Positions 922 to 33,675 are shown, numbered from the stretch's first letter. The stretch is 64,000 nucleotides of DNA from an uncultured Actinomycetes bacterium (GCA_963722795.1 CAVROD010000001.1:81684-145683), one strand, 5' to 3'. Notes: generated by a model not told the origin, from the letters alone. A program made the numbers and translations.

Positions 922-1011
922 CGTTCCTCCGGACGAAGGGTGGACGCCTCGGTCGGAGGCTTCCGTCCCCCTATCGGCAACGAGTCGTCGCGAGATGAGC
1001 GCGCGCGCCGA

Positions 1012-1674
1012 TCAGGGTTCGATCAGACCGAGCTGCGCTGCGCGGGCCACCGCCTGCACCCGGGTGCGCACACCGAGCTTGCGGTAGAGCTTCGCGACGT
1101 GAGTCTCCACGGTGCGGGGGGAGATGCCGAGTCGATGCCCCGCCTGCTGCATCGTGAAGCCTTGGCTCACCATGAGCAGTATCTGGTGCTCGCGGGGGGT
1201 GAGGGTGGCCTGCACCTCGGAGCCTTCCCGGGCCTGCTGCGCGAACGTGCCGAGCGCCATGACGGCCGCCTGCTCGAACTCGGAGTCGATCGCCCTGCCG
1301 CCGTCGGCCACGATGCGGACCGCGGCGCCGACGCCTCGAAGGTCGGTCTTGCGGAGGTACCCCCTGGCGCCGAGCCGCAAGGCCCGCAGCACCGACGGAC
1401 CGTCGGTACGATCGGCGATCACGACCGCCGCCACGGCGACCCCCTCGTCGCGCAGCGACCGGAGCGCGCCGAGGTTGCGCTCGGTCTCGTCCAGGTGGTC
1501 GTCGAGCACGATCACGTCGGGGCGCAGTGACCGACACGCGTCGAGCAAGGCGGCTCGGTCGCGCGCTTCGCCCACGATCTCGAGGCCGGCCTGCGCGAGG
1601 ATCGATCGACGGACGACCTCCACGACCACGGCGTGGCCGGCCGCGATGACGATCGACACGGTCTCGTCGGCCAT
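1012..1674 (-). CDS. NarL/LuxR-family response regulator with atypical receiver
   Basis: ORF 1012..1752. Start trimmed to ATG 1674 (MADETVSIVIAAG...) so it does not overlap the upstream gene. LuxR HTH (LTPREHQILLMVSQGFTMQQAGHRLGISPRTVETHVAKLYRKLGV). The acidic pair after beta1 is replaced (IAAGH); the DVIVLD Asp is retained. Confidence 0.8.
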   Translation of the reverse strand: MADETVSIVIAAGHAVVVEVVRRSILAQAGLEIVGEARDRAALLDACRSLRPDVIVLDDHLDETERNLGALRSLRDEGVAVAAVVIADRTDGPSVLRALRLGARGYLRKTDLRGVGAAVRIVADGGRAIDSEFEQAAVMALGTFAQQAREGSEVQATLTPREHQILLMVSQGFTMQQAGHRLGISPRTVETHVAKLYRKLGVRTRVQAVARAAQLGLIEP

Positions 1675-1684
1675 GGAGCGGAGG

Positions 1685-2362
1685 CTATCCTGCGCGCACG
1701 GGCGGCCGCGAGGCCGTGGCGACGCCGTGACGCCACGCGATGCGAACGGCATCGACCTTCGAATGCACCCCGAGCTTGGCGAGGATGTTCTTCACGTGGC
1801 TCTGCACGGTGAGCGGGCTGATCCCGAACGCCTCGGCCACCTCGGCCGTCGAGGCGCCCCCCGCGAGCGTCTGCAGGATCTCCCGCTCGCGGGGGGTGAG
1901 CGATCGGAGCCCATCGGCTCCCCCGGCGTTGCCACCATCGGCGGCGGTGATGCGATCGACCAACGAGGAGAGGTCGTCGGCGGGCAGCACGAGCTCTCCG
2001 GCCAGCGACCGTCGGAACACATCGAGGAGCGAGCGATCACGCGCCCGGGGCAGCAGCCCGCACGCCCCTGCGGACAACGCGTTGGCCGCGACCTCGGGGC
2101 CGTCGGCCTCGGTGGCGGCGAGCACGCGCCCACGACCGCCGGCCGCCACCGTCGTGAGCACGTCGAGACCCAACCCGTCGGCTCGATCGAGGTCCACCAC
2201 GGCCAGATCGGCGAGGTCGCCGGCGAGGATGTTCGCTGCTTCATCCGCATCGGCGATCGGGCCCGACACGACCACGGCCCCCCTGGCGGGCAACGCCCCG
2301 GCGAGGACACGCGTCAGCCGGGGGTCGGCAGCCACGACGAGGACGCGGATACGCTCGCGCAT
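1685..2362 (-). CDS. NarL/LuxR-family response regulator with atypical receiver
   Basis: ORF 1685..2455. Likely start is ATG 2362 (MRERIRVLVVAADP...). LuxR HTH (LTPREREILQTLAGGASTAEVAEAFGISPLTVQSHVKNILAKLGV). The receiver keeps VVDLD but lacks the conserved Lys (GLLPR). Confidence 0.8.
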   Translation of the reverse strand: MRERIRVLVVAADPRLTRVLAGALPARGAVVVSGPIADADEAANILAGDLADLAVVDLDRADGLGLDVLTTVAAGGRGRVLAATEADGPEVAANALSAGACGLLPRARDRSLLDVFRRSLAGELVLPADDLSSLVDRITAADGGNAGGADGLRSLTPREREILQTLAGGASTAEVAEAFGISPLTVQSHVKNILAKLGVHSKVDAVRIAWRHGVATASRPPVRAG

Positions 2363-2453
2363 GGCCCTTCCATCGGCAGCCGCAACGTGAAGCCTGAACC
2401 GCCGGCATGGTCGCCCCCTGCACCCATCGGATGGGGTGACACACTGACTCCTC

Positions 2454-7866: not shown

Positions 7867-8853
7867 ATGACCGACCGACCGAACGTGCTCGTGACCCGTC
7901 CGATCATGGACGCACCCATGGCCCGGCTGCAGGCGCGCTGCGACGTGACCGTGCACGAGAACGAGTTCGGCATCCCGCGCGAGGAGCTGCTGCAGGTGGT
8001 GGCGGGGCGCGACGCCATCGTGACGATGCTGACCGAGAAGGTCGATGCCGAGTTCCTCGCCGCCGCGGGCCCGCAGCTGCGCATCGTGGCGAACCATGCG
8101 GTCGGGTTCGACAACGTCGACGTGGCGGCGTGCACCGCGGCCGGCGTGCTCGCGACGAACACCCCCGACGTGCTCACCGAGACGACCGCCGACACAGCCT
8201 TCGCGTTGCTCATGGCTGCGGCGCGCCGGGTGGGTGAGGGCGAGCGGTTCCTGCGGGCCGGTACGCCCTGGATCTGGGGCCCGTTGATGATGCTCGGCCA
8301 AGACGTGCACCACAAGACGATCGGCATCGTCGGATTCGGGCGCATCGGCCAGGCCGTGGCCCGGCGCGCGAAGGGGTTCGGCATGCGCGTGGTCTACAGC
8401 GACGCGGTGCAATTGCCCGCCGAGGTGGAAGCCGAGACGGGCGCCGAGCGCCTCGAGCTCGACGACCTGCTCGCGCTAGCCGATTTCGTCTCGATCCACA
8501 CGAACCTCACGCCTGAGACGCGGCACCTGTTCGGCGCCGACGCGTTCCGGGCGATGAAGCCCACGGCCGTCGTGGTGAACACCTCCCGCGGACCCGTGAT
8601 CGACGAAGCCGCGCTCGCCGACGCCCTCGAGCACGGCGAGATCTTCGCCGCCGGCCTCGACGTGTTCGAGCGCGAGCCCGAGGTGGAAGCCCGCCTGCTG
8701 CGGCTCGAGAACGCGGTGGTGATCCCGCACCTCGGCAGCGCAACGGTCGACACGCGCAACGCGATGGGCGACGTGGTGGTCGACAACCTGTTCGCGACGT
8801 TCGACGGCACGAGGCCGCCCACGCTGTTGAACCCCGACGCGTTCGGCGGGTGA
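7867..8853 (+). CDS. D-isomer-specific 2-hydroxyacid dehydrogenase (glyoxylate/hydroxypyruvate reductase type)
   Basis: ATG 7867 (MTDRPNVLVTRPI...). NAD-binding motif GIVGFGRIGQAVARRAKGFGMRVVYSD. Catalytic region VNTSRGPVIDEAAL...GLDVFEREP...PHLGSAT. Confidence 0.85.
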   Translation: MTDRPNVLVTRPIMDAPMARLQARCDVTVHENEFGIPREELLQVVAGRDAIVTMLTEKVDAEFLAAAGPQLRIVANHAVGFDNVDVAACTAAGVLATNTPDVLTETTADTAFALLMAAARRVGEGERFLRAGTPWIWGPLMMLGQDVHHKTIGIVGFGRIGQAVARRAKGFGMRVVYSDAVQLPAEVEAETGAERLELDDLLALADFVSIHTNLTPETRHLFGADAFRAMKPTAVVVNTSRGPVIDEAALADALEHGEIFAAGLDVFEREPEVEARLLRLENAVVIPHLGSATVDTRNAMGDVVVDNLFATFDGTRPPTLLNPDAFGG

Positions 8854-8906
8854 CCGGCGTGCCCGCACGCTCCGCCGCCGGCCGGGGCCGCGGAGGTGCG
8901 CGTGCC

Positions 8907-11515
8907 ATGCCCGCGGAGCTGCGCCGCGACGTGCGGCTGCTCAGCACCGTGCTGGGCGAGGCCATCGCCGAGAGCGGCGGCACCGACCTGCTCGAAGACG
9001 TGGAGTCGCTCCGACACGCCGCCATCGCCCTGCGGGGGCGGCCGAGCGAGGCGCGCCGGCAACGGGTGGTCGAGCTCGTGGCGTCGTTGGACATCGCGGG
9101 CGCCGAGCAGGTGATCAGGGCGTTCACCTGCTACTTCCAGCTCGTGAACCTGGCGGAGGAGCGCCAGCGCAAACGCGTGTTGCATGCCCGCACCCGCGCG
9201 GCGCGCCCGCTCGAGGGCTCGGTCGCGGCGCTCGGCGACGCGGCGACGCCGAGCGCGTTCGCGGATCTGCGCATCCGGCCCGTGCTCACCGCGCACCCCA
9301 CCGAGGCGAAGCGTCGCGCGGTGGTCGAGCACGTGTGGCGCATCGGCGACCTGCTCGAGCGCCTCGACGACGACCGCCTCGGCGCGCCGGAGGCCGAGGA
9401 GACGATGCGGCACCTGCGCGAGGAGATCACGGGCCTGTGGCTGACCGACCCGGTGCGCCACCACCGCCCGGAGCCGCTCGACGAGGTGCGCGCCACGCTC
9501 GCCCTGTTCGACGAGACGATCTTCACGACGTTGCCGCTCGTCTATCGCGAGGTCGACCGCGCCCTCGGCCTCGAGGGAAGCGGCGCCCGCGCGCCCGCGT
9601 TCCCGGCGTTCCTGCGATGGGGCACCTGGGTCGGCGGCGACCGTGACGGCAACCCGTCGGTCACGGCCGAGACGACGACGGCCGCATCGGCGATCGCTGC
9701 CGACCACGTGCTGCGCGGCCTCGAGAACGCGACCCGGCGCATCGCGCGCTCGCTCTCGGTGAGCGAGCGCGACGTGCCGCCCTCGACGGCGTTGCGCCGG
9801 GCGCTCGTTCGCGACGAGCGCGCGCTGCCCGGTCCGGCGCGCGAGCTCGGCCGCAAGCTGCCCGACGCGCCCCACCGGCGCAAGCTCGGACTGGCCGCCC
9901 ATCGGCTCGCGGCCACCCGCACCCGCTCGCGCGGCGCCTACGACGACGCCGCCGAGTTCGTGGCCGACCTCGACGTGCTGCAGCGCTCGCTCGACGCGGG
10001 CGGCGCGCCGAAGCTCGCGTGGGGCGAGCTGCAGCACCTGCGCTGGCAGGCGGAGACGTTCGGCTTCCACCTCGCGGAGATGGAGGTGCGACAGCACGCG
10101 GAGGTGCTCGACGCCGCCGTGCGGGAGCTGGCGCCGAAGGCCGCGGGCAACGCGCTCGCGCTCGACCGCCTGGCGCGGGCGAGAGAGGTCACGCCGTCCG
10201 GCCCCACGACCGCCGCGACCCGCGAGGTGCTCGCGACGTTCCGGGCGATCAGGGACATCCAGGACCGGCTCGGACCGGTCGCGTGCGGACGGGTCATCGT
10301 GAGCTTCACACGATCGGCCGCCGACCTCGCGGGCGTGCAGGCGCTCGCACGCCTCGCCTCCCCCGCCCGGCCGGCCGAAGTGCAACCGGTGCCCCTGCTC
10401 GAGTCTCGGCACGAGCTCGCGACCGCGACCACCATCCTTGACGCGTGGCTCGCGCTGCCCGGCACGAAACGGCTCCTGCGACGGCACCATCGCGAGCTGC
10501 AGGTGATGGTCGGCTACTCCGACTCCGCCAAGGAAGCCGGCGTGCTCGCCGCGAACCTCGAGCTGTACCGGGCGCAGCGCGCGATGGCCGCATGGGCGCG
10601 CGAGCACGACGTGCGCCTGACGATCTTCCACGGGCGCGGCGGGGCGCTCGGGCGCGGGCGGCGGCCCGGCCAGCCGGGCGATCCTCGGGCAGCCGCCGGG
10701 CTCGGTCGACGGACGGTTCGCCGTCACCGAGCAAGGTGAGATGGCCTTCGCCCGCTACGGCGACCCGGTGCTCGCGCGCCGGCATCTCGAGCAGCTCACG
10801 AGCGCGGTCGTGCGGGCGAGCGCCACCGGTGATGCGCCGGACCCCGCCGACCGCTTCGAGCGTGAGCTCGAGCTGATGGCTGAGGCTCCCGCATGCGATA
10901 CGAGCGCCTCGTGCACGGCGACGGGCTTCGTGCGGTTCTTCCGCAGGGTGACGCCGCTCTCGCAGATCTCGACGCCTGCCGATCGCCTCACGTCCGGTCG
11001 CACGCGGAGTCGGTCAGGCCGACGAGCTCGACGACCTTCGTGCGATCCCGTGGGTGTTCGCCTGGAGCCAGAGCCGCGTGAACCTGCCCGGGTGGTACGG
11101 CCTGGGGGCCGGGCTCGAGGCGGTCGCCGCCACGCGGGGCGGCCCCGCGACGCTGCGGGCGATGTTCCGCGACTGGCCGTTCTTCACCGCCCTGATCGAG
11201 AACGCGGAGTTGTCGCTCGCGAAGGCCGATCCCTCGATCGCCGAGCTGTACCTGGCGCGCGGTGGCCGCGACGACCTCGCCGGCGACATCCGCGAGGAGA
11301 TGGCGCGCACGCAGGAGCTGGTGCTCTCGGTCGCCGGGCACCCCCGGCTGCTCGATTGCCGCCCTGAGCTGCAGCAGGCGGTGGAGCTGCGCAACCCGTA
11401 CGTCGACGCGTTGTCGTTCCTGCAGCTGCGCTTCCTGGACGGCCGTGGGCGCGCGGAGCGACTCGTGCAGGCGACGGTGAACGGGGTCGCAGCTGGGCTG
11501 CGCAACACGGGATAG
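8907..11515 (+). pseudogene. ppc: phosphoenolpyruvate carboxylase; reading frame broken twice as sequenced
   Basis: Motifs VLTAHPTEAKRR, VMVGYSDSAKEAG, FHGRGG, RAIPWVFAWSQSR..LPGWYG and C-terminal GLRNTG. Frame 3 switches to frame 1 at the G run 10656-10658, and frame 1 to frame 2 near 10970. An alternative GTG start at 8850 overlaps the upstream stop. Confidence 0.9.
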
Positions 11516-11619
11516 CAGCTGGGCTGCGCAACACGGGATAGCAGCTGGGCTGCGCAACACGGGATAGCAGCTGGGCTGCGCAACACGGGATAGCAGCTGG
11601 GCTGCGCAACACGGGATAG
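11490..11619. repeat. perfect tandem repeat, 26 bp x 5, made of the last 26 nt of ppc including its TAG stop
   Basis: CAGCTGGGCTGCGCAACACGGGATAG is repeated head-to-tail at 11490, 11516, 11542, 11568 and 11594 with no mismatches. Each unit contains the small palindrome GCAGC-TGG-GCTGC. Confidence 0.95.
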
Positions 11620-11745
11620 CGGACCACAGGTCAGCAGCCCGACTATCGGCCCGCCTGGACCGTGTGCCATACTCGGCCCTTCCTTGAACCGGCGTTCAAG
11701 GTGCCACGCGGACCGCGGCTGCCCGCGGGAGGGAGGGTTCACCCC

Positions 11746-12886
11746 ATGACCGACCAGACGATGCCTGCGCTGGACCCGGGCGATCGGCTGCTCTGCGGCC
11801 CCGGGCCATCGAACGTGCACCCGGCGGTGCTCGAGGCGATGCGGCTTGCCGATGAACGGCCACCTCGACCCCGACTTCTGGGACATCCTGCTCGACCTCG
11901 TCGACGGCCTGCGCGCGCTGTGGCGGCGGCCCGAGGGCGGGCTCACGATCGCGCTCAGCTCGTCGGGCACGAGCGCCATGGAAGCCGGCTTCATGAACCT
12001 CGTCGACCCCGGCGACACCGTGATCAGCTGCCACTGGGGGTTCTTCGGCTCGCGGCTCAACGACTTCGCCCAGCGCGTCGGCGCGAACGTGGTCGAGCTC
12101 ACCGCGCGACTTCGGCCAGATCGTGAGCGTCGATCGCATCATGGAGACCGCTGGCCGCGAACCCCGATACGAAGATCGTGAGCGTCGTGCACGCCGAGAC
12201 CTCGACCGGGGCCGAGTTCCCGGTGCAGGAGCTCGCCGAGGCGATGCGCGCGAGCGGCTCCGACGCGCTGCTCTACGTCGACTGCGTGACCTCGCTCGGC
12301 GGCCAGCAGGTCGAGGCCGAGGCGTGGGGCATCGACTACGGCTACTCCTGCTCGCAGAAGGCGCTCGGGTGCCCTCCGGGCATCGCGCCGGTCACGATCA
12401 GCGAGCGCGCGGTCGCCGCGATGCAGCGGCCACCAGGGCGCCGGTGCCCTACTACTACGACTTCGAGGAGCTCTCGAAGTACTGGATCGACCGGCCGATC
12501 ACCTACCACCACACGATGCCGATCCTGCAGTACTACGCGCTGTACACGGGCATCCGGCTGGCCCTCGAGGAGGGCCTCGAGGCCCGGTGGGCGCGCAACG
12601 CCGACGCCGGCCGCTACTTCCAGGACGAGATGCGCTCGCGGGGCTACGAGCTGCTCGCCGACGCCGACCACCAGCTCGTGGAGCTCACCGCCGTGAAGGT
12701 GCCCGAGGGCATCGACGGCAAGGAGATCCAGGACGCGCATCCTGCGCGAGCACGGCATCGAGGTCGGCGGCGGGCTCGGTCCGAAGGCGCCGCCGATCTG
12801 GCGCGTCGGCCTGATGGGCGTGAACGCGCAACCGCGAGACCGCCGATCGCGTGCTCGCCGCGTTCGACGCGGTGCTTCCTCGCTGA
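11746..12886 (+). pseudogene. class V aminotransferase (serine--glyoxylate / alanine--glyoxylate type); at least 5 frame breaks as sequenced
   Basis: GGGAGG RBS then ATG 11746. Pieces found in three frames: LLCGPGPSNVHPAVLEAM, NGHLDPDFWDILLDLVDGLRALW, VVHAETSTGAEFPVQEL, DCVTSLGG, YSCSQKALGCPPG, YYYDFEELSKYW, GIEVGGGLGP, RVGLMGVNA, VLAAFDAVLPR-stop (TGA 12884-12886). Confidence 0.75.
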
Positions 12887-12911
12887 GTCGCGCCATGGCG
12901 AGGCGGCCACG

Positions 12912-13886
12912 ATGGACCGAGCGCGGCTGCACCGCAGCGAGCTGGCCGTGCCCGGCACGAACGTGCGCGCGATGGAGAAGGCGCCGACGCTCGGCGCCGA
13001 CGTGGTCTTCCTCGACCTCGAGGACGCCGTCGCGCCCGACGACAAGGAGCGGGCGCGCGCGAACGTCATCGAGGCGCTCGGCGCGCCACGACTGGTCGCG
13101 GCTGCGGCGGTCAGCGTGCGGGTCAACGGCCTCGACACGCACTGGTGCTACCGCGACATCGTCGACGTGGTGGAAGCGCGCGGCGACGTGCTCGACACCG
13201 TGCTCGTGCCCGAAGGTCGGCATCGCCGTCGCGACGTGGAGTTCGTCGCGACGCTGCTCGACCAGATCGAGCAGCGCAACGGCTGGGATGCGGGCCGCAT
13301 CGGCATCCACATCCTGATCGAGACCGCCGCGGGCATGGCCGAACGTCGAGGCGATCGCGCGCGCGCGGCCCGACCGGCTCGAGGCGATGGTGTTCGGGGT
13401 CGCCGACTACGCCGCGAGCGTGCAGGCGCGCACCACGAACATCGGCGGCGCCAACCCCGACTACTCGGTGCTCACCGACCCAGACCCGGCGAGCGGTGCA
13501 AGGAGCGCGCACTGGGGCGACCAGTGGCACTTCGGCATCTCGCGCATGGTCGCGGCGTGCCGCGCCCACGGCCTGCGGCCGATCGACGGGCCGTTCGGCG
13601 ACTACACCGACGCCGACGGCTACCGCAGCGCCGCCCGCCGCGCGGCGCCCTGGGGTGCGAGGGCAAGTGGGCGATCCACCCCTCGCAGGTCGACGCTGGC
13701 GAACGAGGTCTTCACGCCCTGCCGAGCACGAGGTGGACGCGCGCGGAACGCATCCTGCAGGCGATGGAGGAGGCGGCGAAGGACGGCAAGGGGGCGGTCT
13801 CGCTCGACGGCCGCCTGATCGACGCCGCGTCGATCCGCATGGCCGAGAACCTGATGCGCAAGGTCGAGCAGATGCGCGCCCGCTGA
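12912..13886 (+). pseudogene. HpcH/CitE-family aldolase-lyase, malyl-CoA lyase-like; several frame breaks as sequenced
   Basis: RSELAVPGTNVRAMEKAPTLGADVVFLDLEDAVAPDDKERAR, VRVNGLDTHW, LIETAAGMA, MVFGVADYAASV, GLRPIDGPFGDYTDADGY, GCEGKWAIHPSQV, KDGKGAVSLDGRLIDAASIRMA. These segments are spread over three frames. Confidence 0.7.
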
Positions 13887-13946
13887 CGGACGCACACGAC
13901 ACCCACGACGAGCGGGCTCCGCGTTCGGACGCCCGCGGAGGTGCAC

Positions 13947-15116
13947 ATGAACATCCACGAGTACCAGGCGAAATCGTTGCTCCGCCAGTACCGCGTCACC
14001 ACACCGCGGGGCGAGGTGGTCTACACCTCGAAGGCCGCGGCCCGCGTCGCCGAGGAGCTCGGCGGCCAGCGCTGGGTCGTGAAGGCCCAGATCCACGCGG
14101 GCGGCCGCGGCAAGGCGGGCGGCGTGAAGATCGGCAACTCCCCCGCGAAGATCGCCGAGATCGCCGACCAGATGCTCGGGTCCACGCTCGTCACGGCGCA
14201 GACGGGCCCCGAGGGCCAGCGCGTGAGCCGCGTGCTCGTGGAGCGCGCATCGCGCATCGAGCGTGAGTTCTACCTCTCCATGGTGGTCGACCGCGACTCG
14301 CAGCGCATCGTCGTGATCGCGAGCGCCGAGGGCGGGGTCGACATCGAGGAGGTCGCCGGCGCGACGCCCGACGCGATCCACAAGGAATACATCGACCCGG
14401 GCGTGGGGCTCGTCGACTTCCAGTGCCGCAAGGTCGCCACCGCGATCGGCCTCGGCAAGAAGACCACGTCGTTCACCCGTCTGTTGAAGCGCATGTACCG
14501 GCTGTTCCGCGACCTCGACTGCCTGATGCTCGAGGTGAACCCGTTCATCGAGACCGAGGACGGCGAGCTGGTCGCGCTCGACGCGAAGATGAGCTTCGAC
14601 GACAACGCGCTGTTCCGCCAGGGCGACGTCGTCGAGCTGCGCGACTTCGACGAGGAGGACCCCAAGGAGGTCGAGGCGACCGGGCACGGGCTCAACTACA
14701 TCGCGCTCGACGGCTCGGTCGGCTGCATCGTGAACGGCGCCGGGCTCGCGATGGGCACGATGGACGCGATCGTGCATCACGGCGGGCGGCCCGCGAACTT
14801 CCTCGACGTGGGCGGTGGCGCGAGCCCCGAGAAGATCGCGAACGCCTTCCGCATCGTGCTGCAGGACCCGAACGTGCGCGCGATCCTCGTGAACATCTTC
14901 GCCGGCATCAACCGTTGCGACTGGATCGCGACCGGTGTCGTGCAGGCGACCCGGGATCAGGAGATCGGCGTGCCGGTGATCGTGCGCCTGGCCGGCACGA
15001 ACGTGGAGGAAGGCCGCGCGATCCTCGACGAGAGCGGCCTCGAGCTGATCCAGGCCGTGGACCTCGACGACGCGGCCGCGAAGGCCGTGCTGGCGGCGGA
15101 AGGGGTGCCGGCATGA
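13947..15116 (+). CDS. ADP-forming CoA ligase beta subunit, malate thiokinase (MtkA)-like / SucC family
   Basis: GGAGG RBS then ATG 13947 (MNIHEYQAKSLL). ATP-grasp motifs KAQIHAGGRGKAGGVK, LDAKMSFDDNALFR, NGAGLAMGTMD and NIFAGINRCDW. The malate-thiokinase call rests on the neighbouring lyase, aminotransferase and ppc genes. Confidence 0.8.
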   Translation: MNIHEYQAKSLLRQYRVTTPRGEVVYTSKAAARVAEELGGQRWVVKAQIHAGGRGKAGGVKIGNSPAKIAEIADQMLGSTLVTAQTGPEGQRVSRVLVERASRIEREFYLSMVVDRDSQRIVVIASAEGGVDIEEVAGATPDAIHKEYIDPGVGLVDFQCRKVATAIGLGKKTTSFTRLLKRMYRLFRDLDCLMLEVNPFIETEDGELVALDAKMSFDDNALFRQGDVVELRDFDEEDPKEVEATGHGLNYIALDGSVGCIVNGAGLAMGTMDAIVHHGGRPANFLDVGGGASPEKIANAFRIVLQDPNVRAILVNIFAGINRCDWIATGVVQATRDQEIGVPVIVRLAGTNVEEGRAILDESGLELIQAVDLDDAAAKAVLAAEGVPA

Positions 15117-16015
15117 GCGTCTTCGTCGACAAGGACTCGAAGGTCATCATCCAGGGGTTCACGGGCCAGCACGCGACGTTCCACGCCGAGGAGGCGATGG
15201 CGACCGGCACGAAGGTCGTCGGGGGCGTCACCCCCGGCAAGGGCGGCTCGACGCACCTGGGCCTGCCCGTGTTCAACAGCGTCGCGGAAGCCGTCGAGGA
15301 GACCGGCGCCGACGTGAGCGGCATCTTCGTGCCCCCCGCGGTCGCGACCGACTCCCTGCTGGAGGCCGTCGACGCGGGGGTCGACGTGGCGGTGATCATC
15401 GCCGACGGCGTGCCGGTGCAGGACATGGTGCGCACGAAGCGCTACCTCGCCGGGCGCTCGACCCGCATCATCGGCCCGAACTCCCCCGGCATCATCACGC
15501 CCGGCGAGTGCAAGGTCGGCATCATGCCGAGCCACATCTACATGAAGGGCCGGGTCGGCGTGGTGTCGCGCTCGGGCACGCTGAACTACGAGGCCGTCTC
15601 GCAGATGACCGCGCTCGGCCTCGGCCAGTCGACGTGCGTCGGCATCGGCGGCGACCCGGTGAATGGCACCGACTTCAAGACCGTGCTGCAGGCGTTCGAG
15701 GGCGACGACGACACCGACGTGGTCGTGATGATCGGCGAGATCGGCGGCCAGCAGGAGGTCGAGGCCGCGTCGTGGGCCGCCCAGTACATGTCGAAGCCGC
15801 TCGTGGCGTTCATCGCCGGCGTGTCGGCGCCGCGCGGGCGCCGCATGGGCCACGCGGGTGCGGTGATCGCGGGCGAGTCCGACACCGCGACCGCCAAGCT
15901 CGACGCGATCGAGGCGCTGGGCCATCGCGTCGTGCGCAACCCCGCCGACATCGGCGACACGGTGCTCCGAGCCGTCAAGGAGACGGGGGAACGGGCAGGG
16001 ACCGGCGCGTCGTAG
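15113..16015 (+). CDS. CoA ligase alpha subunit, malate thiokinase (MtkB)-like / SucD family
   Basis: ATG 15113 overlaps the upstream TGA (ATGA). Motifs VIIQGFTGQHATFHAEEA, GGVTPGKGG, GVVSRSGTLNYE, and MGHAGAVI (phosphohistidine loop). Confidence 0.8.
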   Translation: MSVFVDKDSKVIIQGFTGQHATFHAEEAMATGTKVVGGVTPGKGGSTHLGLPVFNSVAEAVEETGADVSGIFVPPAVATDSLLEAVDAGVDVAVIIADGVPVQDMVRTKRYLAGRSTRIIGPNSPGIITPGECKVGIMPSHIYMKGRVGVVSRSGTLNYEAVSQMTALGLGQSTCVGIGGDPVNGTDFKTVLQAFEGDDDTDVVVMIGEIGGQQEVEAASWAAQYMSKPLVAFIAGVSAPRGRRMGHAGAVIAGESDTATAKLDAIEALGHRVVRNPADIGDTVLRAVKETGERAGTGAS

Positions 16016-16200: not shown

Positions 16201-17277
16201 ATGGCGGATCCGTCGACCACCATCTCGGTGCAAGGACGTGACATCAAGGTCACGAGCCCCGACAAGATCTACTTCCCCGACGCCGATGGCGGACCGATCA
16301 CGAAGCTCGAGGTCGTGGAGTACTGGGTCGCCGTGGCCGAGGCCGCGCTCAACGGGTGTCGCGATCGCCCGGCCATCCTGCACCGATTCCCCGGCGGGGT
16401 GACCGGCGAGGACACCGAGCCCTTCTATCAGAAGCGCATCCCCAAGGGGGCGCCCGATTGGGTGCGCACGGCGACGGTGAAGTTCCCGAGCGGACGCACC
16501 GCGTCGATGCCGGTGATGCACGACGAGGCCGCGCTCGTGTGGGCGGCCACGCTCGGCTGCCTCGAGTGCAACCCGTGGCCCGTGCGCGCCGACGATGTCG
16601 ACCACCCCGACGAGCTGCGCGTCGATCTCGACCCCACGCCGGGCGTGCCGTGGGACGACGTGCGCCGGGTCGCCCTGATGGCGCGCGACGTGCTGGCCGA
16701 GCACGGGCTCACGGGCTTCCCGAAGACCAGCGGCAAGCGCGGCATCCACGTGAACGCCCGCGTCGAGCGTGGCAACGGGTTCACGAACACCCGCCGCGCG
16801 GCGCTGGCGTTCGCTCGCGAGGTCGAGCGGCGCATGCCGGGCGTCGCCACGACGGCCTGGTGGAAGGAGGAGCGCACGGGCGTGTTCCTCGACTACAACC
16901 AGAACGCCCGCGATCGCACGGTGGCGAGCGCCTACTCGATCAGGCCGATGCCCGACGCACGCGTGTCGACGCCGCTCACGTGGGACGAGGTCGCCGACGT
17001 CGAGCCCGAGCGGTTCACCGTGCGCACCGTGCCCGAGCGCCTGCGCACGATCGGCGACCCCGGCGCCGGCATCGACGAGCACGCCGGCACCCTCGACCCG
17101 CTGCTCGAGCTCGCGGCGAAGGACGCCGAGGGCGGTCTCGGCGACGCCCCGTGGCCGCCCCACTTCCCGAAGGGGGACGACGAGCCGCTGCGCGTGAACC
17201 CCTCCCGCGCGAAGAAGGTCGCCGAGTGGGAAGCCATGAGGGCAGACGGCACCGGGAAGCCGCGCGGCAGTCGCTGA
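16201..17277 (+). CDS. LigD-type primase-polymerase domain protein (stand-alone NHEJ PolDom)
   Basis: ATG 16201. Motifs KIYFPDADGGPITKLEVVEYW, HRFPGG, ELRVDLDP, FPKTSGKRGIHV and VFLDYNQNARDRTVASAYSIRP. Confidence 0.85.
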   Translation: MADPSTTISVQGRDIKVTSPDKIYFPDADGGPITKLEVVEYWVAVAEAALNGCRDRPAILHRFPGGVTGEDTEPFYQKRIPKGAPDWVRTATVKFPSGRTASMPVMHDEAALVWAATLGCLECNPWPVRADDVDHPDELRVDLDPTPGVPWDDVRRVALMARDVLAEHGLTGFPKTSGKRGIHVNARVERGNGFTNTRRAALAFAREVERRMPGVATTAWWKEERTGVFLDYNQNARDRTVASAYSIRPMPDARVSTPLTWDEVADVEPERFTVRTVPERLRTIGDPGAGIDEHAGTLDPLLELAAKDAEGGLGDAPWPPHFPKGDDEPLRVNPSRAKKVAEWEAMRADGTGKPRGSR

Positions 17278-17368
17278 CCGTGGCGCTGACCTTGGTTTGG
17301 GCCCTCGGTGGCCGGGGAACCGTGGCTGCGACCCCGCGCAACCGGCGCGGCCGACACGAGGGGGATCC

Positions 17369-17818
17369 GTGGACGCGTTGAAGCTGCTGAAGCAGGACCA
17401 CGACGAGGTCAAGAAGATGCTGTCGGACCTCGAGAGCACCACCGAGCGGGCCGAGAAGACCCGCACCGAGGGCCTCGCCACGCTGAAGTCCGAGCTCGAG
17501 GTGCACGAGACGATCGAGGAGGAGATCTTCTACCCGGCGCTCAAGGAGCATCCCAAGACGAAGGACCTCGCGCTCGAGGGCTACGAGGAGCACCACGTCG
17601 TCGACATGGTGATGGGCGAGCTCGAGGGCGTCGACGTGAGCGACGAGACCTGGATGGCCAAATTCGCGGTCATGAAGGAGAACCTCGAGCATCACATCGA
17701 GGAAGAGGAAGGCGAGATGTTCCCGAAGGCCGAGCAGGTCTTCACCGACGGCGAGCTCGGGGAGCTGGGCGATCGCATGCAGGCTCGGAAGGAAGAGCTG
17801 AAGGCATCGCGGAGCTGA
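17369..17818 (+). CDS. hemerythrin HHE cation-binding domain protein
   Basis: GAGGGGG RBS then GTG 17369 (VDALKLLKQDHDEVKKM). Repeated His/Glu motifs HETIEEEIFYP, EEHHVVD and EHHIEEEEGEMFP. Confidence 0.8.
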   Translation: MDALKLLKQDHDEVKKMLSDLESTTERAEKTRTEGLATLKSELEVHETIEEEIFYPALKEHPKTKDLALEGYEEHHVVDMVMGELEGVDVSDETWMAKFAVMKENLEHHIEEEEGEMFPKAEQVFTDGELGELGDRMQARKEELKASRS

Positions 17819-17842
17819 GGCCTTCGGCTAGTCTCGTCCAGA

Positions 17843-18913
17843 CTACTGGTCGGCATCGGGCCACACCGGTGGCTCGACGCCGAGTTGATCGAACCGCACG
17901 CTGGTGGGGTCGCGGTCCTCGCGCCATCGCACGAACGTCGCCGCATGCCGGAAGCGCCCGTACTGCATGCGGTCGATCGTGACCTCGGCCACGAGCACCG
18001 GCTCGATCGCCACCCATTCGAGGTCGCGTCCGCCGGTCCAGCGGCTCGGACCTCCCGGCGTGCGGCCGAGCTCGAAGCTCGGCCCCTCGAGCTGGCGCAG
18101 CTCCGCGAGCATCGCGCGGCGCTCGGCCGCCTTGAACGACGACGTGTGGCCCACGTAGTGCAGCGTGCCCGCATCGTCGTAGAGGCCGAGCAGCAGCGCG
18201 CCGATGCCGTCGCGGGTCTTCGACAGCCGGTAGCCGCCGATCACCACGTCGAGCGTGCGCCGGTGCTTCACCTTGACCCAGCCGCGTTCCCCCGCCAGGT
18301 ACGGCTGGTCCTGGCGCTTAGCGAGCACCCCGTCCTGGCCGAGGCCGTCCTCGTCGTCGAACCAGGCCTGGGCGACCGCCAGGTCGTCGGTCCAGGGAGC
18401 TACCAGCACGACGGGTGGCGCCGGCATCGAGGGAAGATCGCCCGGCGCCTCGGCCCATCCGAGCTCGGCCGCGAGCGCGCTCAGTCGCGCGCGCCGCTCG
18501 GCCAGCGGAAAGCCCGCGAGCTCGTCGTTCCCCTCTCGCAGCAAGTCGAAGAGCACGAGGGTCGCAGGGATCTCACCAGCGAGCTTGTTCACCCTCGACT
18601 CCGCGGGATGCAGCCGCAGCTGCAGCTCGTCGAACTCCATCGCCCCATCGGCGACGCGTACGATCTCCCCGTCGGCCACGAAGGAACCTTCCCCCGCCGC
18701 CTCGACCGCGCTCACGATCTCGGGGAAGTAGCGTCCGAGCGGCCGCCCGTCACGGCTCGCCAGCCGCACCGACCCGTCGTCGGCCACGGCCACGATCGAG
18801 CGGAAGCCGTCCCATTTCGGTTCGTAGGTCCAGCCCTCGCCCTCCGGCATCTCCGGCTGCAGCTTCGCGAGCATCGGCGCCGGCAGATCCCCGACGATCG
18901 TGCGCTTCGGCAT
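17843..18913 (-). CDS. ATP-dependent DNA ligase (LigD ligase-domain / LigC type)
   Basis: 356-aa ORF. Adenylation motif WTYEPKWDGFRSIV, plus EGVLAKR-like GVLAKRQDQPY and an OB-fold C-terminus. Confidence 0.85.
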   Translation of the reverse strand: MPKRTIVGDLPAPMLAKLQPEMPEGEGWTYEPKWDGFRSIVAVADDGSVRLASRDGRPLGRYFPEIVSAVEAAGEGSFVADGEIVRVADGAMEFDELQLRLHPAESRVNKLAGEIPATLVLFDLLREGNDELAGFPLAERRARLSALAAELGWAEAPGDLPSMPAPPVVLVAPWTDDLAVAQAWFDDEDGLGQDGVLAKRQDQPYLAGERGWVKVKHRRTLDVVIGGYRLSKTRDGIGALLLGLYDDAGTLHYVGHTSSFKAAERRAMLAELRQLEGPSFELGRTPGGPSRWTGGRDLEWVAIEPVLVAEVTIDRMQYGRFRHAATFVRWREDRDPTSVRFDQLGVEPPVWPDADQ

Positions 18914-18931
18914 GGTGCGGACCCTACCGCG

Positions 18932-20608: not shown

Positions 20609-22443
20609 TCACTCCGCTTTCGGGCGGCCTCGGCGCGAGGCCTTCTGGCGGTCGTTCTGAGGCAGCAGCACCTTGCGGAGTCGCACGTTCTTCGGCGTGA
20701 CCTCGACGCACTCGTCCTCGCGCAGGAACTCGAGGGCCTGCTCGAGCGAGAGCTGCGTCTTCGGGATGAGCCGCACCAACTCCTCGGCGTTGGCCTTGCG
20801 CATGTTCGTGAGGTGCTTCTCCTTCGTGGGGTTCACGTCCATGTCCTCGGCGCGCGCGTTCTCGCCGACGATCATGCCCTCGTAGACCTCTTCGCCCGGG
20901 CCGACGAACATCGAGCCGCGTTCCTGCAGGTTCAACAGGGCGAACTGGGTCGTCTCGCCGCGGCGGTCGGCGACGAGCGAGCCGCTCGGGCGCGTGCGCA
21001 ACTCGCCGTGCCAGGGCTCGTAGCCCTCGAACACATGGTGCAGCTGGCCGGTGCCGCGGGTCTCGGTCATGAACTCGGTGCGGAACCCGATCAGGCCGCG
21101 CGCCGGCACGAGGTACTCCATGCGGATCCACCCCGTGCCGTGGTTCACCATCTGCTCCATGCGCCCCTTGCGCAGCGCGAGCAGCTGGCTGATCACGCCC
21201 AGGAACTCCTCGGGGGCGTCGACCGCGACGCGCTCCATCGGCTCGAAGAGCTTGCCGTCGACGGTCTTCGTGACCACCTGCGGCTTGCCGACCGTGAGCT
21301 CGAACCCCTCGCGCCGCATCATCTCCACCAGGATGGCGAGCTGCAGCTCGCCGCGGCCCTGCACCTCCCACATCTCCGGCCGGTCGGTCTCGAGCACGCG
21401 GATCGAGACGTTGCCGACGACCTCCTGATCGAGTCGCGACTTCAGCAGGCGGGCGGTGACCTTGTCGCCGTCCTGGCCGCTGAGCGGCGACGTGTTGATC
21501 GCCACGGTCATCGATAGCGACGGCTCGTCGACGTGGGTGATCGGGCAGCGGCCTCGGGTCGGCGGGGTCGGCGAGCGTCTCGCCGATCGTGATCTCGTCG
21601 ATGCCCGCGACCGCGATGATCTCGCCCGGCCCGGCCTCGTCGGTGTCGACCCGGTCGAGGGCGTCGGTCACGTACAGCTCGCTCAGTTTCTGCTGCTCGA
21701 TCGTGCCGTCGGCCCGGCACCACGCGACCGGCTGCCCCTTGCGCACGACCCCGTTGAACACCCGGCAGAGCGCGAGCCGCCCGACGTAGGGCGAGGCGTC
21801 GAGGTTCGTCACGAGCGCCTGCATCGGGTGGCCCTCGACGTACTCCGGCGCCGGGATGTGCGCGAGCAGCGTCTCGAACAACGGCTTCAGGTCGTCGGCG
21901 AGCGCGTCGGGCGACTCGCCCCGCCTTCCCCTCACGCGAGACCGCGTACAGGATCGGGAACGAGATCTGGTGCTCGTCGGCGTCGAGGTCGAGGAAGAGC
22001 TCCTCGACCTCGTGCACGACCTCGTCGGGGCGCGCGTCGGCCCGGTCGACCTTGTTCACCACCAGGATCACCGGCAGCCGCGACTCGAGCGCCTTGCGCA
22101 GCACGAACCGGGTCTGCGGCAGCGGCCCCTCGCTCGCGTCGACGAGCAGCAGCACGCCGTCGACCATCGTGAGCGCGCGCTCGACCTCGCCCCCGAAGTC
22201 GGCGTGGCCCGGCGTGTCGACGATGTTGATCTTCACGTCGCCGTAGCGCACCGCGGTGTTCTTCGCGAGGATCGTGATGCCCTTCTCGCGCTCGAGGTCC
22301 ATCGAGTCCATGACGCGCTCGGCCACGTCCTGGTTGTCGCGGAACGCCCCGGACTGCCACAGCATCGCGTCGACGAGCGTGGTCTTGCCGTGGTCGACGT
22401 GGGCCACGATCGCCACGTTGCGGATGTCATCTCTGGTCGCCAC
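20609..22443 (-). pseudogene. typA: translational GTPase TypA/BipA; two frame breaks as sequenced
   Basis: N-terminus [40 protein letters not shown]. Middle segment [15 protein letters not shown]...[19 protein letters not shown] and a C-terminal 300 aa lie in two other frames. Breaks are near 21930 and 21515. Confidence 0.9.
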
Positions 22444-22563
22444 GGGTTGAGACTACTCAGCCGCCGGGCCAGGCGCCGGGGCAACCGCCGTGGGCCTCCG
22501 ATCGTCTGCCCCGCCGTTCGCTATCGTCTGGCCGCCGCCATCACCACCCCACGAGGAGCGACC

Positions 22564-28432: not shown

Positions 28433-28450
28433 GGTGCTAGCGTCCGCGCG
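28433..28450 (+). promoter_or_regulatory. candidate extended -10 promoter; copy 2 of the 18-nt element, ending 9 nt before ATG 28453
   Basis: GGTGCTAGCGTCCGCGCG is identical to 26372-26389. Lies between the CocE/NonD stop (28380) and the permease start. Confidence 0.35.
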
Positions 28451-28452
28451 GT

Positions 28453-30283: not shown

Positions 30284-30298
30284 CGAAGGCCGCAGCCC

Positions 30299-33581: not shown

Positions 33582-33675
33582 GCGGTGGACGCGCTCCCTC
33601 AGGTCCGCGCGGTGGACGCGCTCCCTCAGGTCCGCGCGGTGGACGCGCTCCCTTGAGCCCGCGCGGTGGACGCGC
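33582..33675. repeat. 27-bp tandem repeat, 3.5 copies, covering the 3' end and stop codon of the LacI gene
   Basis: GCGGTGGACGCGCTCCCTCAGGTCCGC at 33582 and 33609 (identical). A variant copy at 33636 has TCAGGT changed to TTGAGC. A 13-nt partial copy sits at 33663. Confidence 0.9.

What the first reader, a model, noticed from the sequence alone, without database searches (positions are those of the whole stretch)
7867..16015. Serine-cycle-type gene island (hydroxypyruvate reductase-like, ppc, serine/alanine-glyoxylate aminotransferase, malyl-CoA-lyase-like, MtkA/MtkB-like)
Six consecutive same-strand genes encode the enzyme set that is diagnostic for the serine cycle of methylotrophs:
- a 2-hydroxyacid (glyoxylate/hydroxypyruvate) reductase
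- PEP carboxylase
- a class V aminotransferase of the serine--glyoxylate type
- an HpcH/CitE aldolase with malyl-CoA-lyase-like motifs
- two CoA-ligase subunits whose beta subunit carries LDAKMSFDDNALFR and NIFAGINRCDW rather than typical SucC motifs

This co-localisation is well known in alphaproteobacterial methylotrophs. To my knowledge it is not a standard feature of high-GC Gram-positive genomes, which usually assimilate C1 units via the RuMP pathway. The island could instead serve glyoxylate/glycolate assimilation or malyl-CoA-based C2 metabolism. Three of the six genes are frame-broken in this sequence.
Basis: partly seen in the sequence, partly recalled or inferred. Interest (0 to 1): 0.7.

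Follow-up and report, generated by a model that had tools for sequence, protein, structure and literature searches.

The report
Serine-cycle-type gene island, uncultured actinobacterium
An uncultured soil actinobacterium carries six adjacent genes for the core enzymes of the serine cycle, conserved in at least 68 related uncultured species, and the "broken" reading frames in three of them are most likely sequencing errors.

Summary
**Observation: confirmed.** Window 7867-16015 (+ strand) holds six consecutive genes:
- a glyoxylate/hydroxypyruvate reductase
- PEP carboxylase
- a class V glyoxylate aminotransferase
- malyl-CoA lyase
- the two subunits of an ADP-forming acid-CoA ligase

**Enzyme identities**
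- The lyase is a genuine malyl-CoA lyase. It is 64-68% identical to Methylobacterium Mcl and keeps all four catalytic residues.
- The ligase is neither a canonical SucCD nor a member of the alphaproteobacterial MtkAB clade. It forms a third clade with Nitrotoga/Gallionellaceae enzymes. That clade sits directly after mcl wherever the upstream DNA was recovered (77 of 80 relatives). It carries the MtkA-specific loop NIFAGINRCDW, where SucC has NIFGGI(M/V/T)xCD.
- The aminotransferase and reductase are only about 30% identical to the methylotroph Sga and HprA. They would be functional analogues, not orthologues.

**Broken frames.** There are about 20 single-base insertions and 2 deletions, all between 10655 and 13738. 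Removing them restores full-length ORFs with no internal stops and dN/dS of 0.11-0.17. typA is also frame-broken. Among relatives, frame breaks occur only in MFD MAGs, which I take to be long-read assemblies (24/164 genes versus 0/155). This points to an assembly artefact.

**Limits.** No C1 or tetrahydrofolate genes lie in the window or in the ±10 kb flanks of relatives. A role in C1 assimilation is therefore plausible but unproven. I found no paper describing this cluster in Actinomycetota.

The parts
7867..8853 (+). GyaR/GRHPR-type glyoxylate/hydroxypyruvate reductase (D-2-hydroxyacid dehydrogenase, 328 aa, intact)
   Evidence: NCBIfam glyoxylate reductase NF009714: 361.6 bits, below the 455 cut-off. 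Best PDB matches are Pyrococcus glyoxylate reductases at 299-326 bits; the Hyphomicrobium serine-cycle D-glycerate dehydrogenase 1GDH scores 212 bits. Identity is 91-93% to L010/L002 orthologues and 28-36% to Methylobacterium HprA.
8859..11515 (+). ppc, PEP carboxylase (884 aa after frame correction). Frame broken by insertions at 10655, 10916 and 10975 and a deletion at 10886.
   Evidence: The fragments hit NF000584 in three frames. tblastn with L010/L002 PPC gives three collinear pieces. The corrected ORF has no internal stop and scores 734.6 bits on NF000584, below the 815 cut-off. The TAHPTE, GYSDSAKEAG, FHGRGGALGRGGG and C-terminal NTG motifs can be read in the translation.
11490..11619 (+). 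Five tandem copies of a 26-bp unit (GCAGCTGGGCTGCGCAACACGGGATA). The first copy is the last 26 nt of ppc including its TAG stop.
   Evidence: TRF: period 26, 5.4 copies, 98% matches. The sequence was read directly. The array is absent from L010 and L002 and from all 256 fetched loci. It is either an assembly artefact or a private duplication.
11746..12886 (+). Class V (AGXT-type) glyoxylate aminotransferase (377 aa after correction). Broken by single-base insertions at 11846, 12107, 12148, 12428, 12443, 12731 and 12830.
   Evidence: locate the breaks. PDB: 1VJO Nostoc alanine-glyoxylate aminotransferase 330 bits, mosquito and human AGXT/SPT 222-244 bits, Arabidopsis serine-glyoxylate aminotransferase 6PK1 124 bits. 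NCBIfam BhcA scores only 186 bits against a 650 cut-off. The PLP-lysine motif SCSQKAL is present.
12912..13886 (+). mcl, L-malyl-CoA/beta-methylmalyl-CoA lyase (321 aa after correction). Broken by about 10 inserted bases (13085-13738) and one deletion (13646).
   Evidence: PDB: 5UGR M. extorquens malyl-CoA lyase 431 bits, R. sphaeroides Mcl1 313 bits, CitE-type entries 124 bits or less. Identity to Methylobacterium Mcl is 64-68%. The catalytic residues Arg76, Glu141, Asp168 and Asp299 of Mcl1 (PMC3832036) align with SVRVNG, LIETAAG, GVADYAAS and RLIDAAS.
13947..15116 (+). Beta subunit of an ADP-forming dicarboxylate-CoA ligase, MtkA-like (389 aa, intact)
   Evidence: NCBIfam: malate-CoA ligase beta 563 bits (cut-off 604) versus SucC 546 bits, calibrated. 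The NIFAGINRCDW loop matches all 10 reference MtkA and none of 7 SucC. It forms its own clade with Nitrotoga-type enzymes at 100% bootstrap.
15113..16015 (+). Alpha subunit of the ligase, MtkB-like (300 aa, intact). The phosphohistidine motif MGHAGAVI is present.
   Evidence: NF004230: 430 bits. In the NJ tree the Actino+Nitrotoga alpha subunits group with MtkB to the exclusion of all SucD at 72-74% bootstrap.

Best explanation
**What it is.** The island is a functional operon-like module, not a set of pseudogenes. It encodes the serine-cycle-specific enzymes.

**Proposed flow (inferred).**
1. PEP carboxylase makes oxaloacetate.
2. A housekeeping malate dehydrogenase reduces it to malate.
3. 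The MtkAB-like ligase activates malate to malyl-CoA, using ATP.
4. Malyl-CoA lyase splits malyl-CoA into acetyl-CoA and glyoxylate.
5. The AGXT-type aminotransferase converts glyoxylate to glycine, using serine as amino donor and releasing hydroxypyruvate.
6. The GRHPR-type reductase reduces hydroxypyruvate to glycerate.
7. Glycerate returns to PEP through glycerate kinase and enolase, which are encoded elsewhere.

With serine hydroxymethyltransferase and a methylene-H4F supply, this is the serine cycle. With the glycine cleavage system instead, it is a carbon-conserving C3-to-2xC2 loop.

**Shown here:** gene identities, conserved catalytic residues, the MtkA-type loop, the strict mcl-ligase linkage, conservation under purifying selection, and the artefactual nature of the frame breaks.

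**Inferred:** substrate specificities, direction of flux, and any link to C1 substrates.
For: **Enzyme identity**
- The lyase matches malyl-CoA lyase: 5UGR at 431 bits and 64-68% identity to Methylobacterium Mcl, with all four catalytic residues kept.
- The ligase beta subunit shares the A/N/W loop signature with all 10 reference MtkA and with none of 7 SucC.
- Its score offset between the MtkA and SucC models is +17 bits. True SucC give -88 and -187; true MtkA gives +212.
- The alpha subunit groups with MtkB at 72-74% bootstrap.
- The ligase is only 38-43% identical to the SucC of Actinomycetes.

**Genomic linkage**
- mcl lies directly upstream of the ligase in 77 of the 80 relatives; in the other three the contig starts too close to the ligase gene.
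- The full order hpr-ppc-agt-mcl-AB recurs in many species.
- The same six functions cluster in alphaproteobacterial serine-cycle operons (PMC13199381).
- An aminotransferase paired with a hydroxypyruvate-type reductase only makes sense together if serine is the amino donor (inference).

**Frames are artefactual**
- The ratio is about 20 insertions to 2 deletions, and the inserted bases are not extensions of long single-base runs.
- Corrected ORFs have no internal stops.
- dN/dS is 0.11-0.17, against 0.10-0.17 for intact short-read pairs.
- typA is also split into three frames.
- Frame breaks occur in 24/164 island genes of MFD MAGs versus 0/155 in other MAGs, Fisher p = 6e-8.
Against: - The window and the ±10 kb flanks of 68 actinobacterial relatives hold no glyA, glycerate kinase, mdh, H4F/H4MPT, methanol or methylamine dehydrogenase, formate dehydrogenase, EMC or icl genes.
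- The ligase is below NCBI's MtkA cut-off, and its beta-subunit placement relative to MtkA and SucC is unresolved (34% versus 57% bootstrap).
- The aminotransferase and reductase are not orthologues of Sga and HprA. Their nearest characterised relatives prefer alanine:glyoxylate transamination and glyoxylate reduction.
- Island composition varies. Some relatives have only mcl-AB or agt-mcl-AB, so the conserved core is only malate <-> glyoxylate + acetyl-CoA.
- Indel density in the island (about 6.5 per kb) is far higher than elsewhere in the window (about 0.2 per kb). I cannot explain this clustering without reads.
- No biochemical data exist for any member of this ligase clade.
Confidence: 0.55

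Rival explanations
1. Glyoxylate/glycolate assimilation or salvage running the core in reverse. Malyl-CoA lyase condenses glyoxylate with acetyl-CoA. The ligase then converts malyl-CoA to malate while making ATP, giving an energy-conserving substitute for malate synthase. The aminotransferase and reductase buffer glyoxylate as glycine or glycolate.
For: - The universally conserved core is only mcl plus the ligase.
- The sister clade belongs to Nitrotoga and Gallionellaceae MAGs, which from general knowledge are autotrophs that must dispose of glycolate-derived glyoxylate.
- The reductase is closest to true glyoxylate reductases.
- The aminotransferase is closest to alanine-glyoxylate aminotransferases.
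- No C1 genes lie nearby.
Against: - ppc has no role in this scheme, yet it sits inside the island in 27 of 68 relatives.
- Pairing an aminotransferase with a hydroxypyruvate-type reductase fits serine-to-glycerate flow better.
- All characterised clusters with this gene set serve the serine cycle.
Confidence: 0.25
2. The two ligase genes are simply the organism's housekeeping succinyl-CoA synthetase, and they happen to sit beside glyoxylate-related genes.
For: - The beta subunit passes NCBI's SucC cut-off (546 bits against 370) and the alpha subunit passes SucD (430 against 336).
- Some sources name close relatives succinate-CoA ligase.
- A second sucCD in the same genome could not be looked for.
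- SucCD enzymes are known from the literature (my own recollection) to accept malate weakly.
Against: - The ligase falls outside every reference SucCD group with 100% clade support.
- It carries the MtkA-only loop residues A319, N322 and W326.
- It always lies directly after mcl.
- Its MtkA-minus-SucC score offset differs from true SucC by 100-200 bits.
Confidence: 0.07
3. The island is genuinely decaying in this organism: ppc, the aminotransferase and mcl are real pseudogenes.
For: - About 22 indels are concentrated in 3.1 kb, while the flanking island genes are intact.
- A private 26-bp tandem amplification lies in the same stretch.
Against: - There are no nonsense substitutions, and dN/dS is the same as in intact orthologues.
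- The strong insertion bias is the opposite of the usual bacterial deletion bias.
- The conserved GTPase gene typA is also frame-broken.
- Among relatives, breaks occur only in MFD (long-read) assemblies.
Confidence: 0.1

Closest known systems
Serine-cycle gene clusters of alphaproteobacterial methylotrophs (Methylobacterium/Methylorubrum sga-hpr-mtdA-fch-mtkA-mtkB-ppc-mcl; Aminobacter and Paracoccus plasmid sga-mcl-mtkAB-hpr-gck)
   Same: - The same six enzyme functions are clustered on one strand.
- Mcl is 64-68% identical.
- The ligase subunits are 55-58% (beta) and 50-56% (alpha) identical and carry the identical NIFAGINRCDW loop.
- ppc is embedded in the cluster (PMC13199381).
   Different: - The gene order differs (hpr-ppc-agt-mcl-A-B).
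- There is no mtdA/fch, glyA, gck or adjacent regulator.
- The aminotransferase (29-31%) and reductase (28-36%) come from other subfamilies (AGXT-type, GyaR/GRHPR-type).
- PPC is only 31-36% identical.
- The ligase forms a separate clade.
- The host is an uncultured Actinomycetota lineage with no known methylotrophy.
mcl-mtkA-mtkB trios of Candidatus Nitrotoga and Gallionellaceae (Betaproteobacteria)
   Same: - These are the closest ligase relatives outside Actinomycetota: 66-69% (beta), 70-73% (alpha) and 69-70% (Mcl).
- They share the mcl-A-B order, the loop signature and the NCBIfam score profile (563.7 / 545.6 bits).
   Different: - The trio stands alone, without an aminotransferase, reductase or ppc.
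- In Nitrotoga it is followed by glyQS.
- Its function there is also uncharacterised.
Succinyl-CoA synthetase SucCD (E. coli 1SCU/2SCU and others)
   Same: Same fold and two-subunit architecture, the phosphohistidine motif, about 51-52% identity of the beta subunit to E. coli/Klebsiella SucC (alignment), and scores above the NCBIfam SucC/SucD cut-offs.
   Different: - The loop is NIFAGINRCDW, whereas SucC has NIFGGI(V/M/T)xCD(L/V/A).
- It lies outside all SucCD reference clades.
- It is mcl-linked rather than TCA-linked.
Synthetic malyl-CoA-glycerate (MCG) pathway and reverse glyoxylate shunt (from my own recollection of the metabolic-engineering literature; not checked here)
   Same: They use PPC, MDH, malate thiokinase and malyl-CoA lyase to turn C3/C4 acids into acetyl-CoA plus glyoxylate, and they recycle glyoxylate to glycerate.
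   Different: The synthetic route recycles glyoxylate through glyoxylate carboligase and tartronate semialdehyde reductase. This island would use glycine/serine transamination and hydroxypyruvate reduction.

Membership tests
Serine cycle (C1 assimilation pathway) | Malyl-CoA lyase | tested here: met
   5UGR 431 bits. All four catalytic residues are conserved. 64-68% identity to Methylobacterium Mcl.
Serine cycle (C1 assimilation pathway) | Malate thiokinase (MtkAB) | tested here: inconclusive
   The MtkA-type loop and mcl linkage are met. However, the beta subunit scores 563 bits, below the 604 cut-off, and the clade is separate from bona fide MtkAB. Substrate specificity was not assayed.
Serine cycle (C1 assimilation pathway) | Serine-glyoxylate aminotransferase | tested here: inconclusive
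   A class V AGXT-type enzyme is present with its PLP lysine. It is not an orthologue of Sga (29-31% identity) and matches Arabidopsis SGAT at only 124 bits. The amino donor is unknown.
Serine cycle (C1 assimilation pathway) | Hydroxypyruvate reductase | tested here: inconclusive
   A GRHPR/GyaR-type enzyme is present and intact. Its closest matches are glyoxylate reductases; 1GDH scores 212 bits. From general knowledge, family members often reduce both substrates.
Serine cycle (C1 assimilation pathway) | PEP carboxylase within or near the cluster | tested here: met
   NF000584 734.6 bits on the corrected ORF, catalytic motifs present, and the gene lies inside the island.
Serine cycle (C1 assimilation pathway) | SHMT, glycerate 2-kinase, enolase and malate dehydrogenase present in the genome | not testable with these tools
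   None is in the 64-kb window or in the ±10 kb flanks of relatives.
Serine cycle (C1 assimilation pathway) | C1 supply (H4F/H4MPT modules; methanol, methylamine or formate oxidation) and glyoxylate regeneration (EMC pathway or isocitrate lyase) | not testable with these tools
   Absent from the window and from relatives' flanks. The genome-wide state is unknown.
Succinyl-CoA synthetase (housekeeping SucCD) | SucC-type acid-binding loop and placement inside SucCD clades | tested here: not met
   The loop is NIFAGINRCDW, not NIFGGIxxCD. The ligase lies outside proteobacterial/Bacillus and actinomycete SucCD groups.
Succinyl-CoA synthetase (housekeeping SucCD) | Sole copy in the genome | not testable with these tools
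No second copy lies in the window or within ±10 kb in relatives.
Citrate lyase beta subunit (CitE) / itaconate Ccl | Score above the family cut-off and partner genes citD/citF or ict/ich | tested here: not met
   TIGR01588 scores 178 bits against 443, and RipC scores 175 against 375. No partner genes are in the island.
Beta-hydroxyaspartate cycle (BhcABCD) | BhcA aminotransferase with bhcB, bhcC and bhcD | tested here: not met
   BhcA scores 186 bits against 650. No aldolase, dehydratase or imine reductase genes are nearby.

The most novel reading that the evidence does not exclude
A widespread, wholly uncultured, deep-branching soil and groundwater Actinomycetota lineage runs a serine cycle, or a natural malyl-CoA-glycerate-like carbon-conserving loop. 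It is built from a previously unrecognised third clade of malate thiokinases that are always fused in an operon with malyl-CoA lyase and are shared with Nitrotoga/Gallionellaceae. It uses non-orthologous AGXT-type and GRHPR-type enzymes for the serine-to-glycerate branch. This would be the first serine-cycle C1 (methanol or formate) assimilation in Actinomycetota, where known methylotrophs use the RuMP pathway.
Probability: 0.3. Interest if true: 0.75.

Novelty: new variant of a known kind. Interest (0 to 1): 0.5.

Why it matters
- **If the island works as a serine-cycle module,** a globally distributed uncultured actinobacterial lineage would join the soil sinks for methanol, formate or glyoxylate-type C1/C2 compounds. 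Relatives come from Danish, Chinese, Antarctic, groundwater and hot-spring metagenomes. The phylum is thought to assimilate C1 only through RuMP.
- **Annotation.** The mcl-linked ligase clade is currently named inconsistently, as either succinate-CoA or malate-CoA ligase. A single enzyme assay would fix the annotation of thousands of metagenomic proteins. It would also supply new malate thiokinases for synthetic carbon-conserving pathways.
- **Practical warning.** Frame-broken genes in long-read MAGs of this high-GC lineage should not be read as pseudogenes.

Tried and rejected
- **Exact source of the window.** No self-hit turned up in the protein database or in the GTDB representatives. The best beta-subunit matches were 95-97% identical.
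- **Second sucCD or C1 genes in the same genomes.** The collection tools return only the best 80 loci by similarity, with ±10 kb flanks. A named MAG cannot be interrogated, so this was abandoned.
- **Literature.** Four searches plus one badly designed search found no paper describing this cluster in Actinomycetota. Two further queries did not yield the succinate-binding residues of SucC.
- **Beta-subunit phylogeny.** NJ with bootstrap could not resolve whether the clade is sister to MtkA or to SucC (34% versus 57%). No maximum-likelihood program was available.
- **LDAKMSFDDNALFR as a marker.** Rejected, because SucC proteins carry near-identical versions.
- **Promoter and terminator scan.** Nothing was found in the island, as expected for 70% GC DNA.
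- **Alternative pathways.** The BHAC, citrate lyase, itaconate lyase and EMC/3-hydroxypropionate readings were rejected on family scores and missing partner genes.
- **Nitrotoga neighbourhood.** It gave no functional clue; glyQS and unrelated genes follow the trio.
- **The three upstream LuxR-type regulators as SecR-like serine-cycle regulators.** Their receiver domains are degenerate, but they lie 5.5 kb away. They are also conserved beside relatives whose island has only mcl-AB. No link was established.


Full report
**1. What is in the sequence**

The window is about 70% G+C. A third-codon-position GC frame plot and ORF listing show six consecutive + strand genes between 7867 and 16015:
- 7867-8853: D-2-hydroxyacid dehydrogenase, intact.
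- 8859-11515: ppc.
- 11746-12886: class V aminotransferase.
- 12912-13886: HpcH/CitE-type lyase.
- 13947-15116: ligase beta subunit, intact.
- 15113-16015: ligase alpha subunit, intact. Its start overlaps the beta stop.

Both quoted peptide motifs are present.

**2. The broken frames**

tblastn with intact orthologues from two relatives (L010, L002) splits ppc, the aminotransferase and the lyase into collinear pieces in different frames.

A three-way DNA alignment shows the cause. There are about 20 window-specific inserted bases and 2 single-base deletions, all between 10655 and 13738. The inserted bases are not extensions of long single-base runs.

Evidence that the breaks are not gene decay:
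- Deleting the insertions gives full-length ORFs with only the terminal stop in each gene.
- dN/dS of the corrected genes against L010 and L002 is 0.11-0.17. Two intact short-read relatives compared with each other give 0.10-0.17. Constraint is not relaxed, and there are no nonsense substitutions.
- Frame breaks are not confined to the island. The conserved GTPase gene typA/bipA is split over three frames, with junctions near 21540 and 21925. An ABC permease region breaks near 29160 and 30130. Relatives encode single intact BipA proteins of 609-626 aa.
- Among 68 actinobacterial relatives, frame breaks in island genes occur in 24 of 164 genes from 'MFD' MAGs. From my own knowledge, the contig naming and megabase-sized contigs mark these as Microflora Danica long-read assemblies. 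In all other, short-read-style MAGs the count is 0 of 155. Fisher's exact p = 6e-8.

I conclude that the breaks are most likely consensus errors of a long-read metagenome assembly.

One point remains unexplained. The errors are concentrated in this 3.1-kb stretch, at about 6.5 per kb against about 0.2 per kb elsewhere in the alignable part of the window.

The same stretch holds five perfect tandem copies of the last 26 nt of ppc, including its stop codon (11490-11619). This array is absent from all 256 fetched loci. It may be part of the same local assembly problem.

**3. Who carries it**

The window itself is not in the searched collections. The closest beta subunits are 95-97% identical and come from soil 'Actinomycetota bacterium' MAGs.

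A BipA search places the lineage apart from classical actinomycetes. Beyond its own clade (identity 80% or more), the nearest named relatives are Acidimicrobiia and Thermoleophilia MAGs at 74-81%. No cultured organism appears among the relatives.

The chromosomal neighbourhood is syntenic across relatives. It includes three LuxR-type regulators, a DsbH-like thioredoxin, cyclophilin, a GNAT acetyltransferase, LigD/ligase and BipA. The island is therefore a stable chromosomal feature.

**4. Conservation and modularity**

tblastn of the six (frame-corrected) proteins against all loci gives the following:
- mcl lies immediately upstream of the ligase genes in 77 of the 80 relatives of the ligase. 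These are 65 Actinomycetota-type MAGs and 12 Nitrotoga/Gallionellaceae genomes. In the other three loci the contig starts within about 360 bp of the ligase gene, so the upstream region is missing.
- By ORF family clustering, the aminotransferase is present upstream in 49 of 68 actinobacterial loci, the reductase in 24 and ppc in 27.

Precomputed Pfam contexts show the variants mcl-AB only (L174), agt-mcl-AB (L175) and the full hpr-ppc-agt-mcl-AB (L081, L176).

No other recurrent neighbour family looked like SHMT, glycerate kinase, malate dehydrogenase or an H4F enzyme. This rests on reading the sequences of the recurrent families, not on a family scan.

**5. Enzyme identities**

*Lyase.* The best solved relative is the M. 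extorquens malyl-CoA lyase 5UGR (431 bits), then R. sphaeroides Mcl1 (313 bits). CitE-type entries score 124 bits or less. Identity to Methylobacterium Mcl is 64-68%. The catalytic Arg76, Mg-binding Glu141 and Asp168, and lid Asp299 defined for Mcl1 (PMC3832036) are all conserved. I file it as a malyl-CoA lyase.

*Ligase identity levels.* The beta subunit compares as follows:

| Reference group | Identity of the beta subunit |
|---|---|
| Annotated malate-CoA ligases of Paracoccus, Aminobacter, Ruegeria, Methylobacterium | 55-58% |
| Proteobacterial and Bacillus SucC | 48-55% |
| Streptomyces, Tsukamurella, Arthrobacter, Rhodococcus SucC | 38-43% |

*Ligase phylogeny.* NJ trees with bootstrap give a 100%-supported clade of Actinomycetota plus Nitrotoga-type enzymes. 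It is separated at 99-100% from actinomycete SucCD. The alpha subunit joins MtkB at 72-74%. The beta subunit is unresolved: 34% with MtkA, against 57% for MtkA grouping with SucC.

*Ligase profile scores.* NCBIfam scores, calibrated on references:

| Beta subunit | MtkA model (bits) | SucC model (bits) |
|---|---|---|
| Window | 563 | 546 |
| Nitrotoga | 564 | 546 |
| Methylorubrum MtkA | 768 | 556 |
| S. meliloti SucC | 481 | 569 |
| Tsukamurella SucC | 326 | 513 |

*Ligase signature residues.* Ten beta-subunit alignment columns are invariant in 10 reference MtkA and never show that residue in 7 SucC. The window matches MtkA at six of them. These include A319, N322 and W326 of the loop NIFAGINRCDW. 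That loop is identical (apart from I/V) in every MtkA and every clade member. All SucC read N(I/V)FGGI(M/V/T)xCD(V/L/A).

From my own recollection of the pig SCS-succinate structure (Huang and Fraser 2016, cited in PMC10413351), this GG loop forms part of the succinate site. I did not verify the residues.

The ligase therefore works like a malate thiokinase by every sequence and context criterion available. It is a distinct clade and remains unassayed.

*Aminotransferase.* The best match is the Nostoc alanine-glyoxylate aminotransferase 1VJO (330 bits). Animal AGXT/serine-pyruvate aminotransferases follow at 222-244 bits. The Arabidopsis serine-glyoxylate enzyme scores only 124 bits, and identity to Methylobacterium Sga is 29-31%. 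BhcA is far below its cut-off.

*Reductase.* The best matches are Pyrococcus glyoxylate reductases (299-326 bits). The Hyphomicrobium serine-cycle glycerate dehydrogenase scores 212 bits, and identity to Methylobacterium HprA is 28-36%.

These two genes are therefore functional analogues at best, not orthologues, of the methylotroph genes.

*PPC.* The corrected ORF scores 734.6 bits on the PEPC model, below the 815 cut-off, and keeps the catalytic motifs.

**6. How it most likely works**

The six functions are exactly those that characterised serine-cycle operons co-cluster. My own comparisons with Methylobacterium, Paraburkholderia, Aminobacter and Paracoccus loci show this, as do the cluster patterns summarised in PMC13199381.

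The most coherent reading is this chain:
PEP -> oxaloacetate -> malate -> malyl-CoA -> acetyl-CoA + glyoxylate, then glyoxylate + serine -> glycine + hydroxypyruvate -> glycerate.

An aminotransferase and a hydroxypyruvate-type reductase are only needed together if serine is the donor. ppc is only needed if flux runs from C3 towards malyl-CoA. These are inferences.

The main rival runs the conserved mcl-ligase core in the condensing direction, as an ATP-conserving glyoxylate sink. That fits the autotrophic sister clade and the glyoxylate-leaning affinities of the two accessory enzymes. It leaves ppc unexplained.

A role as housekeeping SucCD is unlikely on loop, clade and linkage evidence. It cannot be excluded formally, because I could not search the same genomes for another sucCD.

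**7. Missing pieces**

The 64-kb window has no other C1-related gene. Its remaining content includes PPK2, class I aldolase, a desaturase, cyclopropane-fatty-acid-synthase-like genes, ABC transporters and glycosyltransferases.

Whether the lineage has SHMT, GCV, glycerate kinase, an H4F-linked C1 supply, a methanol, methylamine or formate oxidation system, or a glyoxylate regeneration route is unknown.

**8. Novelty and score**

Every component belongs to a known family, and the pathway logic is known. The new elements are:
- the host, an uncultured deep-branching Actinomycetota lineage
- the separate mcl-linked ligase clade shared with Nitrotoga/Gallionellaceae
- the substitution of AGXT-type and GRHPR-type enzymes for the two steps
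- the modular build-up of the island

Five full-text searches found no description of it.

I rate it a new variant of a known kind, of moderate interest (0.5). It would be considerably higher if C1 assimilation or a new thiokinase specificity were demonstrated.

Noticed in passing
window 11490-11619: Five perfect tandem copies of a 26-bp unit that equals the last 26 nt of ppc, including its TAG stop. Each unit contains a GCAGC...GCTGC palindrome, and the array folds strongly (z = -4.6). It is absent from all 256 fetched loci.
   Followed up: partly
window 20639-22428 (- strand): typA/bipA, a conserved translational GTPase gene, is split over three reading frames, with junctions near 21540 and 21925. 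Relatives encode one intact protein of 609-626 aa. This indicates that indel errors occur outside the island too.
   Followed up: yes
window 26720-27309 and 28441-30552 (+ strand): There are further frame switches. A Peptidase_S15 fragment resembles part of the intact S15 peptidase at 22498-24276. An ABC permease pair has junctions near 29160 and 30130.
   Followed up: partly
window 217-2410 (- strand): Three tandem LuxR/GerE-type response regulators have degenerate receiver domains. The first has Gly at the phospho-acceptor position, and all three lack the N-terminal acidic pair. They are conserved upstream of the island in relatives. They recall the atypical SecR regulators of alphaproteobacterial serine-cycle operons (PMC13199381), but they lie 5.5 kb away and no link was shown.
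   Followed up: partly
window 41874-41940 (+ strand): Rfam ASdes sRNA match (56.8 bits, E = 9e-11) lying antisense inside a soluble acyl-ACP-type desaturase gene (41308-42285, - strand). This is the arrangement described for Mycobacterium tuberculosis desA1.
   Followed up: no
window 16240-18931: A LigD primase-polymerase gene and a convergent ATP-dependent DNA ligase gene (non-homologous end joining), with a hemerythrin gene between them, lie directly downstream of the island. The arrangement is conserved in several relatives.
   Followed up: no
window 33582-33675: A 27-bp tandem repeat (3.5 copies, 94% matches) at the 3' end of a LacI-family regulator gene (33629-34699, - strand), running into the spacer downstream of it.
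   Followed up: no
L002 11170-12074; L174 11714-12067; other MFD loci: In relatives from MFD (long-read) MAGs, island genes are also frame-broken at scattered positions; for example, mtkB is broken in L002 and L174. None is broken in short-read MAGs. Public annotations of these MAGs therefore contain truncated proteins.
   Followed up: yes
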